DNA of 64,000 nt from Sporopachydermia quercuum (lineage: Eukaryota), in NCBI GenBank assembly GCA_001599295.1, contig BCGN01000006.1, forward strand, positions 434,001 to 498,000, written 5' to 3'. Shown piece by piece: positions 22,412 to 46,513 of the stretch. The notes beneath the pieces were generated by a model. That model was not told the origin of the DNA. It made no database searches and saw nothing but the letters and a program-made list of their open reading frames with translations. Each line of letters opens with the position of its first letter. Positions within the stretch are counted from its first letter, which is position 1. A program made the position numbers and the translations under genes.

Positions 22412-24384
22412 TATTGAGGTCAAAATGATGCATGATGTACATATTGCTAGATCCTTGGCTGATCTTGAATAGTTTACCATGCGCTCCGGTTGCTCTGGTA
22501 TTTCTCTTCTTTGGATATAATCCCGACACCTGTGTCAGGATGTATGTACAGAGAATAGAGAAGACGTTGGCCGTCACTGTTTGCTCTTCCAATTAAGTAT
22601 AGAACACCATCGGTAATGAATGAATAAGTGAGCTGAGGTAGAGTGCACTTCAAAAGGCAGTTCAAAAGGTAGCTATTGCAAGACTGACTATCACGAATTA
22701 TTTATGAAACTATATTTTGCTTCCTTTTTCATTTGACGTTATGAACAGTAATTAGTGGCCTCTTAACATGTGATTTTATTGGCTATTGATTCAGTGCTGT
22801 TGTACTATAGTGTACTCTATTGTACTATGCTTCCAATTCACTATATATTCTACTGTTTTGAATTTCATTGTATCTATACTATTACAGTTGAGTTGGCTTA
22901 ATCTTGATTTATTTTGGTATATTTCAGTTTATTTTAATTTATTGGAATTCGTTTCATTTTCTTTCCTTTCGTTCCCTTTTGATATAATCTCTTGTATTAC
23001 TAGTCTGAGTTTTGTTTCATGATGTATGTATGTCTGTATAATAACTAATACACTTGTAATATATATAAATGTGATGAACAAGCTAAGCTGGTTTATTAAA
23101 GTAGCATGAATACTTCAAAAGAGAAAAAAGAGAAATGGATCACTTATCTATTGATTCATCTACTATCAATTCATTTACAGTATTTAGGAATTTGTTGTAT
23201 TGTTCGTTTTCAATTGAAAGTCTGTTAACAAACTGGTAAAATGTATGCAAGAAATTAAATAAAAATATCATTTGATGTTCATTTAATCTAGACTATCATA
23301 GTCTTAGTCACTGAAGTTTGATTATATAATGTACTAAATGTATCTAGCTTCACTTCACATCTAAATAAATCAGCAAATTTGCATTGTAAATTCTACAATT
23401 TGGAGTATTTATGGACAATAGGATGTTGTGTTGATTAATTACTATCACATCACTTGAAAAAGATGTAACTGTACTCAAATCTCACATTCAATCTAGCCTC
23501 TTGCTTATTCGATGACCAGTAAATGTTTGACATCAAAAAGCATCCAGCTCAAGGTCAGCTATGAAAACGTTTGACCGAGCGAGGAACAAGGCATTAAGGA
23601 ACAGAAAAAAAAGAAATAATGAAAAATAAAATAAAGGTGAAAGGTAGGCGATGGACTGAACAATTCAAATGCGAGACTATGAACCAAGTTATATCATTAG
23701 TTCCTTGCTACGATTAGACTTGACAGCTTTAAAATTGTTTGTTAGTATTGAGTGATTTCCATTATTCAAACGTTAGTGCTACCTTTAGAGTGGCTAACTA
23801 TTCAGTGGTTTCTCCATTCCGTTGTTCAAGTTTACTTCTATTCCAGGTGTTGCAAGTACTTTGAATCAGTAAGAAAAAAGCAATTTCGAAAGGTGCGATT
23901 CTTATAAAGAGTGCAATTCATCTTCATGACAAATATAATACAAATGCGACATAGTACTATGCATGGATAGATGCGTGATTATTTTTGATCATATGACAGT
24001 TAAGCCAATGTTCTTTCTATAATGCACCAGCCAGGCTTCATTATGTTATTACGTCCGTTGGTTTCACAGATACGATATCTTTGTGTGAATATTGGCCGAA
24101 TATTTTGATTGGAATCCATCTTTCAGCATAGTTCACGCTATTGTTATCGTACCTCGCACAAAAAATCAATGATTCGAGCTTTTCATGCTTGCCTTGGCTT
24201 TTCATGACATTATCCCGTTATATGTGATGATAACATACTTATCAAACAGTTATGTCATTGATTGGGCCAATGAATTGCTAACTCTTCATCTAATAAAAAG
24301 AAAAAAATACCCTCAACCAATCATCAGCAAACTAGCCATCATACAGAGGGTAGCTTACAGTTCTCTTGTTGAAATCACCAAAAT

Positions 24385-27995: not shown

Positions 27996-29413
27996 TAGTT
28001 TCCTCAAGTTATTCAATCAATCAATAAGAATATCTGGAATAACAAGTCAATTGTGTATCTATTTCAATTTATTTCCAACTCTATCATTCGCTATTTTTCC
28101 TTTTCCTATTATCACCTTCCATGCTCGCGATTCTCTCCGTCCCTCGCACAATAATGGGCACGAGGGAGGAAAAGCAAGCAAAATGAGAGTGAAAACTGCG
28201 AACGGGAAAGAAAGTGGTGTATGTCCTACAGAAGTAAATTGTCCTGGACCTTAATGGGAGGACAAAGTGGACAGAAGGATGTTAGTGTTAAAGGGGTAGG
28301 TAGAGAGAAAGTCCTTGATTGACATTATAAGGGAGAACTAGTTATAAAGCTGATATAAACAGTGATATTTAATTGAGCATCTTTTTTTCATTTTGTTTGA
28401 AATGATTTCGAATTTCGAGTACAGTACCGTGGACGAAGTGAAGACTGGCGGGCAGATTGCATAGGAAGAGATCAATTATTGTCCGGTAACACAAGATAAT
28501 AGGTGAGAAAGTGAAACGGAAATGATAAGAGTAAAATGATGAAACAGTATGAGTGGGTTATGTAAATAATCTGTATAATTAATTGATATTTGTTGGAGAA
28601 TTGTGCCATGAAGTAGCCTATTACGCTTTTTGATTACAATGAAGACTTTAGTTCTGGATTCACTTAGGCAAGATGCGGTAAGGGTAATGAAAAGTTTAAC
28701 TATATCGGAAATGATATCAAAATTTTGGGTTCCCTTTCCGATAAAACACAACTCAATTGATGTATGACTAAGATATCTCCAAACGGACAATCATTTACTC
28801 CTGCTCAAAGTTTTATGGCTTCTTGCAGAGATTCTGTATGAAATTTTAATGATTAATTCGAGATTTACCCCATCTCCATCTATAATCGGAATGAAGTTTA
28901 TCGCTTTCGATCTGTTCTGGGTCTATTTGGAAGAATCGCGACATATGGTAATTTTGTCCGCTCAGCATAATGATCATTCTTCATAACTGCAACTGACTCT
29001 AAAAAGACTAAAAGCAACTATTTTGTAGTCCTTATCTTATTGTTTCTAAAAGGTTCATCTAATCAATCATCAAACTCAAGAATATTGGATTTTTTTGATT
29101 CATTCATTGAGTAGTAAAACGTATAGCCGTCCCTTGGAGTCTTATCAACGTCCGGTGTTTCGATTTTCACTGTCCCTTACCTATCCGATAACGGCACTAG
29201 AAACCTTCATTCTATGCGGTATCTCATCCTAGTGTGACATGATGATATGTTCATAATTAATTGATTCTAAATCTGACTTGCTTGTAGCAATTGAGATAGC
29301 AACTAGTCCTCAGCTGATCAATCATATATCAGTAGTCTTCCTGGGGTGATTGATAGAAACGAAAACATTGGTGTGTTTTGTTGTTATCAATCAAGAACAG
29401 AATCGTAGTAATC

Positions 29414-30646
29414 ATGTCAGAGCTCCCTTCAACTCCAGGTGAATTGAAGTTCATTCAACCATATATTGCAAGAAGTAAGGAGGTAGAGAAGGCAAATCCT
29501 ATTATATCATATTTCTGTAAATTATTTGCAGTTCAACAAATTCTGAACAAAAGTTTGCATTTGAAATCTCAAGAGATTGCTAGCTATGCCGGAGCTTTGC
29601 TTGATAACATTGAATATCTAAAGAATAATGAACCCAGCTTAACAAGTGAATATGGCAAAGAAATTTTGAATGATGATTTATCAGCGTTTGTTTATATAGA
29701 GAATTTTGCTCAATCAGTATTTGGAAAAGCCGATAAAGATATAAGGAATCATGATTGTTCAAAGTAAGTATATGTGCTTTTGAAGATATCTAATCGATTG
29801 GATAGATGATTGCAATATATTAACAATGTGACTCATAGACAAACTGCAGCTGCTCTTTTTGCTGCATCGATATTCTACAGTTTAACGGCACTGTTTCCAA
29901 TTGAAAACTCTGAGTCTTCGCTAGAGGAAGTAAACTCAAAAATCAAATATGCTAAATACCATGCAGCTCGAATTTTAAAAGCTATCAAAGAAGGAACAGA
30001 TCCCAATGACTATGAGTTACCAGAAGAAGAGGAAGAAAAACAAGCAGAAGCAGAATTAGAACACGGCAATAATGTTAAGGATAACAATGATCTAGAAGAT
30101 GCTACAAATGAGTCCGTAGAATCATATGGCTCGAAACCAAAGGAAGAACAAGTGTCAAAAGCTGAGATTAACCAAGTTATAGACGAAGCAATTAAAGGAT
30201 CATTTAAGCCTGGTATGACTATTTATGATATAGAGGATGATGCTACGGTTGCTATCAATAGTCTCTCAATTGATAACTCAGTTCCTACGGTGTTACCATC
30301 ATTCCCAGCGCCACCAAGCTCTGTAGATGGTAACAACCCTGAACTATGGGTATCAGATTCAAGTTCTCAACCTCAATCACCTAAGCTACCTCATGTCCCT
30401 CGAGCTCCATCAGTCCCAACGACAGCCCCTACGACGCCTCCCCCTGTGTCAAAAGCTAAACCTTCGTCAGAGATCCATATAACTAAGGAGAATGTTCAAC
30501 GCATTGTTGATGAATCTGAATTATACTCAACTGTTCAAAAGCATGCCAAGTTTGCCATCTCAGCATTAAACTATGAAGATGTTCCTACAGCCAAGAAGGA
30601 GCTTTTAACTGCTTTGGCCCTGTTGGAAAAGAACGCTCAGTTCTGA
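29414..30646 (+). CDS. VTA1: Vps4 activator Vta1 (ESCRT), 2 exons
   Basis: Exons 29414-29763 and 29839-30646. Intron 29764-29838 (GTAAGT...TATTAAC...TAG) joins the two ORF-track pieces in frame. MIT region: PIISYFCKLFAVQQIL, KIKYAKYHAARILKAIKEG. VSL domain: QKHAKFAISALNYEDVPTA. Confidence 0.92.
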
Positions 30647-43018: not shown

Positions 43019-44042
43019 ATGTCTGATGAAGTAAGTACCATTTGAATGAGGTTAGGATAGAATAAGTTAAGTGCTTGTTGATAAGAGCAGAAACTAACCA
43101 GGAAACTAGATAATATGGCAAGTAATCAATCAGCAATTTTGTTCGTTTAAGCTGAAAACTACAAAAGAACAAAATTTTTGCAGAAATGAATATAATGTAA
43201 GCGGATTGTGTAGTCGTCAATCATGCCCATTGGCTAATTCACGATATGCTACAGTTAGAAACGTTGAAGGAAGACTCTACCTATACATGAAGACCATTGA
43301 AAGAGCCCATATGCCTAATAGATTATGGGAAAGAATAAAGCTACCTAAAGAATATTCTAAGGCATTAGAACAAATTGATAAACATTTAATCTATTGGCCA
43401 AAGTTTTTAATTCATAAATGTAAGCAGAGACTTACAAGGTTGACACAAGTTGCTATTACAGAAAGACGATTAACCCTCAAAGAGGAAGAACGTCATTATG
43501 TTGGTGTGAAGCCAAAGGTGAAACGACGAGAACAAACCAGAGAGAGAAAGGCTTTGGCTGCTGCTAAGATTGAAAAGGCAATTGAGAAGGAACTTTTGGA
43601 TAGGTTGAAATCTGGCGCTTATGGTGACAAACCGTTGAATGTGGATGAAAAGATTTGGAAGAAGGTTTTGAATGGTGTTGAAGAAACTGAAGGACTTGAA
43701 GAAGAAGAGTTAGAGGAAGATTCTGATTTAGAAGACGAAGAATCTGATTATGGTGAAGTTGAATATGTTGAAGCTGATGAAGATGATGAAGAAAACTTAG
43801 TTGATTTAGAAGATCTTGAAGCATGGCTTGGTGGTAGCGATTCAGAAGAAAATGCTACTGATAGTTCTGATGAAGACAGTTCAGAAGAAGAATCAGAAGA
43901 TGACGCTAAAGCTGGAAGTAAAAGAAAATCATCTGGTAAGAAAGCCGGAAAGAATAAGAGACCTAAAGGACCAAGAGTTGAAATTGAGTACGAAGAGGAG
44001 AGAGAGCCTATTACAAATTTGCAGGCACTTGCTCAATATTAG
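43019..44042 (+). CDS. MAK16: 60S biogenesis factor Mak16, 2 exons
   Basis: Exon 1 is 43019-43030 (MSDE). Intron 43031-43109 is GTAAGT...AACTAAC...TAG. Exon 2 reads [45 protein letters not shown] and continues to an acidic tail and VEIEYE. Confidence 0.95.
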
Positions 44043-44485
44043 TGGGATAACTACACTATATGTATTGGATAAAAGGGGTTTTCATATATACTTAATGTTT
44101 TCATATTGCATTGCATTAGAAGAGCTTTCAACGTAGGAGAAAATGGTATTCGCTATATTGCAAAGTAGTTTGGTTCTGAATCTTCGTAGTAATCTTTAGA
44201 ATGTTCGAGTTAAGTTGTTACTATCTTGAGAAGCATTTTAATTTACTTTGCATTATGAAACAATAGTTTAAAAGCCGTTACAGCAAGGTCAGTAAGGTTG
44301 ATATGAGATCTTGAAACAAAAAGTATATCTCACGTATCACCAAACCCTCATACTTCGACTTTGGTTGGAAAATATTGAGTAAACTACAGTAATTATCTAA
44401 AAGAACGCTACTAAGCAAAGAAATTAAAACTAGATGATTGTTTTCTATGTAATTTTGATGATTAACTAAAGAACTTATATATTGT

Positions 44486-45151
44486 TTATGCTTCAGCTAA
44501 TTCTCTGAGACGTCTGATAGTAGATCTGACAGTCGTAGCAGCAGGAGTGCTAATAAAATCGTTAGNAACAATTGAACAAAAAATGTTTACAATCAACTAT
44601 ATAATATTAATTATAACTTACGCTAAAGTATAAGCACCACCAGCGATGGTCTTACCACTGGATTGGTCGTACCAAACACCAACAGCTCTTCTCTTAACGG
44701 CATTCTTACCGGTGAAAGGAGACAAGTATCTGGCGTGTTGTTGAACTTCCAACTTCTTACATTGACGTCTTAAGGAAGAACCGTATCTCACACCGTATTT
44801 ACCGGTGATTCCAACCTTCTTAGTTCTCTTAGTCCTGAGATACTGTTAGCATTAATCCTGCAGGTGAATATTGAACTTATTTTGTAATATTCGTTGTATA
44901 TTTCTGAACGATCGAATATTGCTGAATATAAAAAACAATCACATATTTAGAAGATATGATTGAATTTCGTTTCTGAGTTTTGAAGGGACAGATCTTGAAC
45001 AATCTTCGTTATACTTGTGGAACCCAGTACAGTACCGGACTCCGTGCTGCCAAATAAACGTTGAATGTTTACTCTCGTTGTTTATTCCCATAATATCAAC
45101 ACTACAATATAATCAAAAAATCAGTTCTCGTCATTTAGTTAACACTTACAT
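44486..45151 (-). CDS. RPL43: 60S ribosomal protein eL43 (L37a), 3 exons, zinc ligands lost
   Basis: Exons 45151-45150 (AT), 44834-44622 and 44549-44486. Introns 45149-44835 and 44621-44550 (GTAAGT..TGCTAAC/TNCTAAC..YAG). The 279-nt CDS gives [92 protein letters not shown]. Not in the ORF track. Confidence 0.96.
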
Positions 45152-46513
45152 TGTGATCTGGTTTGATGTTAGTAAAGTTGTTCAGATGATGAAATGTTTT
45201 GGTAAGTAGCCGAACAAAAACGAATGATAGTAAAACGCAATCAATGAAACAAACGATCTTTGTTGGACAGTTTTAGTTCTATAATTTAATTGAAAATCCC
45301 ACACAAGCTAGTACTAATTCGCCTTCTAAGAGTTATTCTCTTCACTCAACTATCGTCGCAATATCATTCATTGTTTCAGCCCAATTATATCAATCCCACT
45401 TACATAAAATTGTTCTTATATGAATCGTTATAATCACCGAGTTCTGGTTCAACAATAACTACAATTTAAACAAATTTCTCTTAAGAAGAACTTGTAATAA
45501 TAATAGCTATATGGGAATATGGAAAGCGAAACCAGGAATATTAGAATGGGATAGAATAGAATGCACTAGGATCCTTACTGAGAGTGTGGTGGCTACTGCA
45601 TCTACTGTTTCTCGACCAAATGTGCGTGGGTGGGTATCAATGAAAATTTACCAATAGTTATCACTCATAGAAATGTTTCTCATTCTTCAGTATAACTATT
45701 TCATTATTTCCTAAGTAGGACATCTATTTGATTGACCTTATTATTATATATCGAGTCAAAGCCCTTGAAAACTACACGTGATGAATATTAAATCTCTTTT
45801 CTTTCTCAATTTCTATTATTTAATTACATAAGCATTAATACCGTTAGAACACCTACAACGGTGCTTCTCCGACAAGTGGTTTTTGTATGGAGCTCCTTCT
45901 GGGCTGTGTCACGTTGATGCACAACAATATTCCAACTCCTTTTGATAGAACGATGGAAATTGTATTGGAGATTTAACTGATTCGAATACGGAGATTAGTA
46001 GTTATTATATACTTAAATCCTCTGTATTGTGATATTGATACTCTTTTGCTAATAACGGATGTGTTTTGCAAGAAGGAGCAGAGCAACTATTGGTGCTGAT
46101 CTCATTACTTTCTATCATATTGACTCTTCAGTGGATGATATTATTATAAGGAACAAAGCATAAACCACAGGCTGAAAGGGAAGGTTCTGTATTTTGTAGG
46201 GGTAGCTAAAAGTGTTTTATGTTTTCTTCAATTGTATTTCAATTGTAGCTAGCGGTTGTATCTACCAACGCACTCCGGTACCTATATAAGCGCTCTGGGA
46301 TATTCATCTCATCCTCATCTTACCTACTGCCTATCAATTGCTTTACAATCCATCTAATAAAAAAGTACAGAGTTACAGAAAGTTGCAATAAGATAACAGA
46401 GAGAAAAATTGGGACCGACCTCACCAAGTATTCAGCAGTTAATTACCTCAGATCTCTTTTAATTTGGAACATTCGGTTCGTCTAGTCTAATCAATCCTCC
46501 ATATCCTCTTACT

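What the first reader, a model, noticed from the sequence alone, without database searches (positions are those of the whole stretch)
44486..45151. Zinc-free ('C-minus') eukaryotic ribosomal protein eL43/Rpl43: all four Zn-ribbon cysteines replaced
Seen in sequence: the hidden 3-exon gene splices to a full-length 92-aa eL43. The canonical CxxC...CxxC (S. cerevisiae C39/C42/C57/C60, 'YDCSFCGK...WTCSCCKK') reads YLSPFTGK...WYDQSSGK. The codons are TCT (44722-44720), ACC (44713-44711), GAC (44668-44666) and AGT (44659-44657). Two of these need two substitutions from a Cys codon, so sequencing error is implausible. The rest of the protein is highly conserved, the introns are intact (including the split AT|G start), and codon use looks ribosomal-protein-like (AAG, AGA, GGT, GTT), so it looks functional. 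The non-ligand C26 is kept, so this is loss of Zn ligands rather than general Cys depletion. Established knowledge: eL43 is normally a C4 zinc ribbon in archaea and eukaryotes, and C+/C- swaps with Ser/Thr/Asp substitutes are well known for bacterial L31/L33/L36/S14 under Zur control. Inference: this yeast either replaced its only eL43 with a Zn-independent version, or keeps a zinc-sparing paralog, a eukaryotic counterpart of the bacterial system. I am not aware of this being described in budding yeasts, but I could not search.
Basis: partly seen in the sequence, partly recalled or inferred. Interest (0 to 1): 0.9.

Follow-up and report, generated by a model that had tools for sequence, protein, structure and literature searches.

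The report
Cysteine-free ribosomal protein eL43 in yeast
A budding yeast carries a well-conserved, apparently highly expressed gene for ribosomal protein eL43 in which all four zinc-holding cysteines have been replaced, so it is a rare natural test of whether this ribosomal zinc site is needed.

Summary
A three-exon gene on the minus strand (44486-45151) encodes a 92-aa eL43 (Pfam PF01780, E 3e-27).

Contigs of two runs from two studies carry the stretch without a single difference. The rest of the protein is ordinary: residues never seen in 112 homologues lie only in the two zinc knuckles. Codon bias is strongly of the highly expressed type, and the intron positions match those of relatives.

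Homologues almost always keep the four cysteines: 110 of 112, 144 of 148, 73 of 80 and 22 of 22 in four searches. No yeast with the same pattern was found. Marine protist sequences with 0-2 cysteines do exist, and one reads N/T/D/S.

Published precedents are Haloferacales eL43 without the zinc finger and "zinc-free" ribosomal paralogues in Encephalitozoon cuniculi.

I found no second copy at 80% or more DNA likeness in either contig set, and no Zap1-like motif upstream. The best reading is therefore a constitutive, probably sole, zinc-free eL43, not a regulated paralogue.

No whole genome and no RNA data were available.

The parts
45150..45151 (-). Exon 1 of RPL43/eL43: the bases AT of the split start codon (the G comes from exon 2).
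   Evidence: The following GTAAGT is the 5' splice site.
44835..45149 (-). Intron 1: 315 nt, GTAAGT 5' site, TGCTAAC branch-point-like site 10 nt before the AG.
   Evidence: The same acceptor position, with TACTAAC or CTAAC just upstream, is seen in organisms B and C (loose ends, my reading) and in loci L001-L003.
44622..44834 (-). Exon 2: codons 1 (third base) to 72 (first two bases). It holds the whole former zinc ribbon.
   Evidence: P0001, 70 aa; Pfam PF01780 at 94.9 bits against a cut-off of 21.9; PDB eL43 chains at E 2e-28.
44720..44722 (-). Codon TCT = Ser39, in place of zinc ligand Cys 1.
   Evidence: Never seen at this column in 112 homologues.
44711..44713 (-). Codon ACC = Thr42, in place of zinc ligand Cys 2.
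44666..44668 (-). Codon GAC = Asp57, in place of zinc ligand Cys 3. It is flanked by Tyr56 and Gln58, which are also never seen in the homologues.
44657..44659 (-). Codon AGT = Ser60, in place of zinc ligand Cys 4.
44759..44761 (-). Codon TGT = Cys26, the only Cys and not a ligand. It is present in 19% of homologues, including the nearest ones.
44550..44621 (-). Intron 2: 72 nt, GTAAGT 5' site, TNCTAAC (N at 44566) 11 nt before the AG. It splits a codon after its second base.
   Evidence: The position and phase are the same in L001 and L002.
44486..44549 (-). Exon 3: the last base of codon 72, codons 73-92 and the TAA stop (44488-44486).

Best explanation
This is the working gene for large-subunit ribosomal protein eL43 (RPL43) of an early-branching budding yeast, and probably its only copy. 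The Cys4 zinc ribbon has become a cysteine-free ribbon with ligands Ser39, Thr42, Asp57 and Ser60.

Shown:
- The gene is intact and its splice positions are conserved.
- It is codon-optimised like a highly expressed gene.
- It is unchanged outside the two knuckles.
- It cannot form a Cys4 zinc site.

Inferred:
- The protein still takes its normal place on 25S rRNA.
- The two knuckles are held together without zinc. Most likely the Asp57 carboxylate accepts hydrogen bonds from the three hydroxyls (Ser39, Thr42, Ser60).
- The new Tyr56 and Gln58, together with the rRNA contacts, add stability.
- Once the first ligand was lost the other free thiols had no use, so they were replaced as well.
- The form is constitutive. 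It is not one half of a zinc-regulated pair.
For: - Gene model and ligand codons.
- Family: PF01780, E 3.1e-27. Solved eL43 chains at E about 1e-28, with S/T/D/S aligned to the four Cys.
- Conservation: of 70 positions, only S39, T42, Y56, D57 and Q58 are never seen in 112 homologues, and R50 and S60 are rare. Residues 2-37 and 62-71 show only residues found in at least 6% of the homologues.
- Codon bias: AAG 8 of 9 Lys, AGA 9 of 11 Arg, GGT 8 of 9 Gly, TAC 4 of 5 Tyr. Fifteen of the 16 other ORFs in the window have lower values on all four measures; the sixteenth, the cofilin-like ORF, is lower on three and has AGA 6 of 8 Arg.
- Intron positions are shared with relatives.
- Sequence quality: two contig sets from two studies are identical over 851 bases.
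- Copy number: each of those sets, read whole, laid exactly one record at 80% or more likeness. The same call laid the orthologues of organisms B and C on 44726-44838, with 12 and 17 differences.
- Convergence: one member (P0393) of a marine protist eL43 cluster reads N/T/D/S, the same residues at ligands 2-4. Fourteen of the 15 listed members read N/T/C/S.
- The neighbouring MAK16 keeps its run of cysteines, so there is no general Cys depletion.
Against: - No whole genome was held. A diverged C+ copy, below 80% DNA likeness everywhere, cannot be excluded. The tool itself warns that a filter drops some records.
- The nearest yeast homologue occurs as two gene copies (L001 and L002). This raises the prior for a paralogue.
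- There is no evidence here on RNA, protein or metal content.
- The AlphaFold model is only moderately confident (mean pLDDT 68.9) and rests on an alignment of C+ homologues. It says nothing about zinc.
- The hydrogen-bond network is inference. I could not inspect coordinates.
- PMC8305020 (passage read) states that the zinc finger's importance was shown experimentally for the S. cerevisiae protein (Rivlin et al. 1999). I could not read that paper.
Confidence: 0.68

Rival explanations
1. Zinc-sparing paralogue. The genome also holds a canonical C+ RPL43 that I could not see. This C- copy is used, perhaps induced, when zinc is scarce, as with the bacterial L31/L33/S14 C-/C+ pairs.
For: - The whole genome could not be searched.
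- The nearest yeast homologue has two gene copies.
- E. cuniculi is reported to encode both zinc-coordinating and zinc-free versions of some r-proteins (PMC8807834, Methods passage).
Against: - Only one record per contig set of organism A lies on the gene at 80% or more likeness, whereas other species' orthologues were laid by the same call.
- No ZRE-like motif (consensus recalled from S. cerevisiae Zap1) lies in the 1362 nt upstream.
- The very strong codon bias fits a constitutively high-expressed gene.
Confidence: 0.14
2. The site still binds a metal. The oxygen ligands (Ser, Thr, Asp, Ser) would coordinate a hard ion such as Mg2+, Ca2+ or K+ in place of Zn2+, or a water molecule. That would be a metal swap and not a metal-free ribbon. 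This concerns the mechanism only and is compatible with a sole copy.
For: - One carboxylate plus three hydroxyls is a plausible hard-ion site (inference).
- The same T/D/S solution recurs in an unrelated protist sequence, P0393. This points to a specific geometry and not random decay.
Against: - No coordinates or metal data were available.
- Fourteen of the 15 listed protist cluster members keep Cys and not Asp at ligand 3, so Asp is not required.
Confidence: 0.12
3. A decaying or extraribosomal copy. The gene would be a relaxed duplicate on its way to a pseudogene, or would have a role outside the ribosome.
For: Loss of four near-invariant residues would normally suggest relaxed constraint.
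Against: - The reading frame, both introns and the split ATG are intact.
- All changes outside the knuckles are common residues.
- The codon bias is the strongest of 17 genes in the window on AAG, GGT, ACT+ACC and TAC, and within a few points of the highest on the other three measures.
- No other copy was seen.
Confidence: 0.04
4. A sequencing or assembly artefact.
For: The window holds 21 single Ns, one of them inside intron 2, so the assembly is a draft.
Against: - Four separate codons are changed, and two of them need double substitutions.
- Two contig sets from two studies agree at every base of 44400-45250, at depths 33.8 and 99.3.
Confidence: 0.02

Closest known systems
Canonical eukaryotic eL43 (S. 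cerevisiae Rpl43A/B = YL37a; K. lactis eL43 in PDB 6uz7)
   Same: - Same family (PF01780), same length (92 aa).
- The N-terminal rRNA-binding part and the C-terminal helix match.
- 79-83% identity to the three nearest homologues over exon 2.
- The 2-nt first exon of the S. cerevisiae gene is recalled, not tested here.
   Different: All four Cys of CxxC...CxxC are replaced. The second knuckle is remodelled to W-Y-D-Q-S-S-G-K.
eL43 of Haloferacales (for example Haloferax volcanii HVO_0654), reported to lack the C2-C2 zinc finger
   Same: A natural eL43 without the zinc finger across a whole lineage (PMC8305020, section 3.8, passage read).
   Different: It is archaeal and halophilic. I did not see its sequence, so the replacing residues were not compared. 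The supplement with the details was not held as text.
Marine protist eL43 clusters with 0-2 cysteines (P0381 cluster; P0355 cluster; P0109; loci L022, L028, L038, L044, L058, L076, L078)
   Same: - Eukaryotic eL43 with lost ligands, otherwise conserved. The P0381 and P0355 clusters and P0109 carry the source label 'merc'; that this is a marine metatranscriptome catalogue, and hence that they are expressed, rests on my recollection of the label.
- P0393 reads N/T/D/S, sharing T, D and S with the yeast.
- A Pro follows ligand 1 in most of them, as in the yeast.
   Different: - Most keep one or two Cys: NTCS in 14 of 15 listed members; SCCT in 4 and SSCT in 3 of 80 loci.
- The lineages are unrelated. 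Three loci carry in-frame TAG or TAA at Gln positions.
- They are undescribed in the papers I searched.
Bacterial C-/C+ ribosomal protein paralogues (L31, L33, L36, S14) under Zur control
   Same: A zinc-ribbon ribosomal protein whose Cys ligands are replaced by polar residues. For the bacterial system see the passages in PMC13090322 and PMC11508205.
   Different: - No C+ partner and no zinc-responsive element were found here.
- The protein family and the domain of life are different.
Zinc-free ribosomal protein paralogues of Encephalitozoon cuniculi
   Same: A fungus-related eukaryote with zinc-free versions of zinc-binding r-proteins (PMC8807834, Methods passage).
   Different: - There the zinc-free form is a second gene, and the cryo-EM map showed the zinc-coordinating isoforms.
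- The passage does not say which proteins are involved.
- The organism is a reduced parasite, not a free-living yeast.

Membership tests
eL43 / Ribosomal_L37ae (Pfam PF01780) | Profile match above the curated cut-off | tested here: met
   94.9 bits against a cut-off of 21.9, E 3.1e-27, covering profile positions 1-67 of 85 with exon 2 alone.
eL43 / Ribosomal_L37ae (Pfam PF01780) | Full-length architecture: a protein of about 92 aa with a basic N-terminal part, a ribbon and a C-terminal helix | tested here: met
   92 aa after splicing. Exon 3 matches the consensus C-terminus [13 protein letters not shown]. The best solved matches are eL43 chains.
eL43 / Ribosomal_L37ae (Pfam PF01780) | C4 zinc ribbon (CxxC ... 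CxxC). This is typical of the family but not universal, since it is reported absent in Haloferacales. | tested here: not met
   The ligand columns read S, T, D, S. Homologues read CCCC in 110 of 112, 144 of 148, 73 of 80 and 22 of 22.
eL43 / Ribosomal_L37ae (Pfam PF01780) | Incorporation into the 60S subunit | not testable with these tools
   No RNA or proteome data. No RNA holder was listed.
Zinc-sparing C-/C+ ribosomal paralogue pair (Zur type) | A C- form without Cys ligands | tested here: met
Zinc-sparing C-/C+ ribosomal paralogue pair (Zur type) | A C+ paralogue in the same genome | tested here: inconclusive
   - No genome was held.
- There is no second hit in the window.
- Runs X1 and X2, read whole, each laid one record at 80% or more likeness.
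- A more diverged copy would be missed.
Zinc-sparing C-/C+ ribosomal paralogue pair (Zur type) | A zinc-responsive regulatory site upstream | tested here: not met
   No match to ACCYYNRRGGT in 45152-46513. The motif is recalled from S. cerevisiae Zap1 and may not apply in this lineage.
Zinc-sparing C-/C+ ribosomal paralogue pair (Zur type) | Exchange in ribosomes under zinc limitation | not testable with these tools
   This needs cultures and proteomics.
Constitutive zinc-free eL43 (as reported for Haloferacales) | The sole eL43 of the organism lacks the zinc ligands | tested here: inconclusive
   Ligand loss is shown. Sole copy is supported only by the contig lay.

The most novel reading that the evidence does not exclude
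The C- eL43 is one arm of a zinc-responsive ribosome remodelling system in a free-living fungus. An undetected C+ RPL43 would serve in zinc-replete cells and this copy would take over when zinc is scarce, possibly alongside C- versions of other zinc r-proteins. That would be the first regulated eukaryotic counterpart of the bacterial Zur-controlled paralogue switch.
Probability: 0.08. Interest if true: 0.85.

Novelty: new member of a known kind. Interest (0 to 1): 0.55.

Why it matters
- Nine cytosolic r-proteins keep CxxC motifs across model eukaryotes (PMC13090322, passage read). It is still debated whether their zinc is structural, a reserve or a redox sensor.
- A free-living, culturable yeast whose eL43 has no cysteine ligands is a natural experiment on that question.
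- It shows that the eL43 zinc site can be dispensed with in a eukaryotic ribosome.
- It offers a concrete substitute set (S/T/D/S, partly repeated in a protist) that can be tested by swapping into S. cerevisiae RPL43.
- It gives a starting point for asking whether the lineage economises on zinc more widely.

Tried and rejected
- Whole-genome search for a second copy and for eL37, eL40, eL42, eS26, eS27, uS14 and eS31: not possible, because no genome is held.
- Other r-protein genes in the window: none. I ran Pfam on 16 long ORFs and on 133 stop-to-stop ORFs of 50 aa or more in the gaps. Parallel ligand loss therefore could not be examined.
- RNA evidence: no RNA holder was listed. Splicing and expression remain untested.
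- Earlier findings of this scan: three look-ups returned nothing.
- C- relatives: the C- specific peptide patterns ([16 protein letters not shown] and others) were among the six scanned in metagenome contigs and found no relative with the yeast pattern.
- Bacterial-type promoter and terminator scan: not applicable to a yeast gene, so I ignored it.
- Recalled yeast promoter motifs (Tbf1, Rap1, IFHL, RRPE, Abf1) were absent upstream. Only one CACGTG, at -629, and two GATGAG near the divergent flippase gene were found. This is uninformative.
- Rfam on the window: nothing in the RPL43 introns. No tRNA genes.
- AlphaFold and Foldseek: the model resembles eL43 (TM about 0.6; rmsd 7-9 A because of the extended tail). 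It was built from C+ homologues, so it is no evidence on metal binding.
- Solved structure of a Cys-poor eukaryotic eL43: the five alignments shown for a protist query were all CCCC chains. The other chains were not inspected.
- Rivlin et al. 1999 and Dresios et al. 2002 on yeast YL37a are not held. Only their titles were seen, in reference lists. The supplement of PMC8305020 is not held as text.
- Exact species: not pursued.

Full report
**What is there**

On the minus strand of 44486-45151 lies a three-exon gene.
- Exon 1 is only AT (45151-45150).
- Intron 1 is 315 nt, with GTAAGT at its start and TGCTAAC 10 nt before the AG.
- Exon 2 is 44834-44622.
- Intron 2 is 72 nt, with GTAAGT at its start and TNCTAAC 11 nt before the AG. 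The N is at 44566.
- Exon 3 is 44549-44486 and ends in TAA.

The spliced frame is 279 nt and gives 92 aa, with no internal stop and one Cys at residue 26. Exon 2 alone (P0001) matches Pfam Ribosomal_L37ae (PF01780) at 94.9 bits against a cut-off of 21.9. It also matches solved eL43 chains of K. lactis, S. cerevisiae and C. albicans at E about 1e-28. Exon 3 matches the usual C-terminal helix.

**The ligands**

In the HMMER alignment to K. lactis eL43, the four Cys of CxxC...CxxC face Ser39, Thr42, Asp57 and Ser60. ACC and GAC are each two substitutions away from a Cys codon.

**Real or artefact**

Contigs of two runs of the same coded organism (X1, study P1; X2, study P2) cover 44400-45250 with 0 other letters and 0 gaps. 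Their depths are 33.8 and 99.3, on records of 91 kb and 49 kb. One of them may be the source of the window, in which case the other is an independent sequencing. The window is a draft with 21 single Ns.

**Is it under selection**

A per-column comparison with 112 homologues gives these results.
- The only residues never seen elsewhere are S39, T42, Y56, D57 and Q58.
- R50 and S60 are rare.
- Every other position carries a residue found in at least 6% of the homologues.

Against the nearest homologue (P0003, 83% identity) there are 12 differences in 70 residues. Ten of them lie in residues 37-62 and none in residues 2-30.

Codon use is strongly biased: AAG 8 of 9, AGA 9 of 11, GGT 8 of 9, TAC 4 of 5. 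On the same four measures, 15 of the 16 other ORFs in the window are lower throughout; the cofilin-like ORF is lower on three, with AGA 6 of 8.

The intron positions are conserved.
- Loci L001 and L002 have the same acceptor before G-ACT-AAG and the same phase-2 intron before the last exon.
- The loose ends of organisms B and C show TACTAAC just upstream of the same acceptor (my reading).

The neighbouring MAK16 (43110-44042, plus strand) keeps its cysteine run, so this is not general Cys depletion. Together these points argue for a functional, highly expressed gene whose change is confined to the metal site.

**How unusual it is**

Ligand patterns among homologues were as follows.
- Word-indexed protein search: 112 hits, of which 110 read CCCC, 1 reads ACCS (P0109) and 1 is truncated.
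- Representative search: 1288 hits at E of 1e-3 or better, with the best 150 listed. Of the 148 new ones, 144 read CCCC, 2 YCCC (the plants Ilex and Cryptomeria), 1 SCCT and 1 NTCS.
- Metagenome scan: 80 loci were kept of 282 relatives. Of these, 73 read CCCC, 4 SCCT and 3 SSCT.
- Longer proteins: 22 of 22 new ones read CCCC.

No sequence has the yeast pattern, and none of the Cys-poor ones is a yeast.

The NTCS representative (P0381) heads a cluster of 22 members. Most listed members carry the source label 'merc', which I recall to be a catalogue built from marine metatranscriptomes. Of the 15 listed members, 14 read N/T/C/S and one (P0393) reads N/T/D/S, the same residues as the yeast at ligands 2-4. 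Three of the SCCT loci carry in-frame TAG or TAA where homologues have Gln, so they come from organisms with a reassigned stop codon. Cys loss in eukaryotic eL43 is therefore rare but recurrent, and part of the same replacement set arose twice.

**Lineage**

The transketolase encoded in the window is at most 76% identical to any database protein. The best hits are Nadsonia fulvescens, then Lipomyces species. The best eL43 hits are an NCBI yeast protein annotated as similar to S. cerevisiae RPL43B (P0003), then Magnusiomyces paraingens and Nadsonia. The organism is thus an early-branching budding yeast with no close annotated relative. I did not pursue the species.

**One copy or two**

No genome is held, and the window has no second hit. 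In the contig lay at 80% or more likeness, the whole contig sets of X1 and X2 each laid one record. The same call laid the orthologues of two other yeasts, B and C, on the conserved first half of exon 2 (44726-44838, with 12 and 17 differences). Their loose ends decode to D-C-S-F-C-G-K, which is canonical (my decoding).

A paralogue as conserved as those orthologues would therefore have been seen. A more diverged one would not, and the tool warns that some records are filtered. The nearest homologue exists as two loci (L001, L002), which keeps the paralogue idea alive. I put a sole copy at roughly three in four.

**Regulation**

The 1362-nt region up to the divergent flippase gene has no match to a Zap1-type element. 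The consensus is recalled and may not hold in this lineage. No RNA run was available.

**Mechanism**

Shown: no Cys4 site is possible.

Inferred:
- The ribbon is kept. The AlphaFold model has mean pLDDT 68.9, with the ribbon blocks at 74-79. It resembles eL43 chains at TM about 0.6, but it was built from C+ homologues.
- One carboxylate (Asp57) and three hydroxyls (Ser39, Thr42, Ser60) can form a hydrogen-bonded cluster where the zinc sat.
- Tyr56 and Gln58 are new and unique, and may pack on that cluster.
- A hard ion or a water molecule at the centre is an alternative that I cannot exclude.

**Literature**

- PMC8305020 (section 3.8, passage read): eL43 lacks the C2-C2 finger in Haloferacales. 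The eukaryotic orthologues named there, for example rat and yeast, contain it. Its importance was shown for the yeast protein by Rivlin et al. 1999 and Dresios et al. 2002. Those two papers are not held, and the supplement is not held as text.
- PMC8807834 (Methods passage read): E. cuniculi encodes zinc-coordinating and zinc-free versions of some r-proteins, and the map shows the zinc forms.
- PMC13090322 (passages read): nine CxxC r-proteins, eL43 among them, are conserved across six model eukaryotes 'though some variations exist'. No eukaryotic paralogue switch is described.
- Nine searches found no paper on a Cys-free eL43 in yeast or other fungi.

**Verdict**

It is best filed as a new fungal member of a known kind: natural zinc-free versions of zinc-ribbon ribosomal proteins, already reported for eL43 in haloarchaea. 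It is most likely constitutive and not a regulated paralogue. It is a useful natural experiment but not a new principle.

Noticed in passing
L028, L038, L044 (also L022, L058, L076, L078); proteins P0355, P0381-P0399, P0109: Eukaryotic eL43 sequences with only 0-2 of the four zinc cysteines (patterns SCCT, SSCT, NTCS, NTDS, ACCS): the L loci come from metagenome contigs, and most of the proteins carry the source label 'merc' (recalled to be a marine metatranscriptome catalogue). Three loci have in-frame TAG or TAA at Gln positions, which suggests a reassigned stop codon. P0393 shares T, D and S with the yeast.
   Followed up: partly
L001:1501-1710 and L002:1501-1710: The nearest yeast homologue occurs as two loci in one metagenome. 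Their exon-2 proteins are identical, their ligands are canonical CCCC, and both introns sit at the same positions as in the window gene.
   Followed up: partly
window 23421-23594 (-): H/ACA snoRNA snR36: Rfam RF01242 at 88 bits against a gathering score of 43, full length.
   Followed up: no
window, 21 positions (for example 7068, 9964, 27803, 44566, 63801): Single Ns are scattered through the window, about one per 3 kb. One lies in the branch-point-like site of RPL43 intron 2. They may be ambiguous or heterozygous base calls.
   Followed up: no
window 45084-45250, run X4: A 237-nt contig at depth 2 in the run of a different organism (B, same study as X1) is identical to organism A's sequence here. 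This looks like low-level carry-over between libraries and not shared ancestry.
   Followed up: no
window 29357-30643 (+): A Vta1-like gene is split over two frames: Vta1 N-terminal part in 29357-29764, the remainder plus Vta1_C in 29810-30643. It is probably interrupted by a short intron.
   Followed up: no
window 43110-44042 (+): MAK16 (Ribosomal_L28e and Mak16 domains) lies tail-to-tail next to RPL43. It keeps its N-terminal run of four cysteines. The open frame extends upstream of the first ATG at 43287, so its start may be spliced.
   Followed up: no
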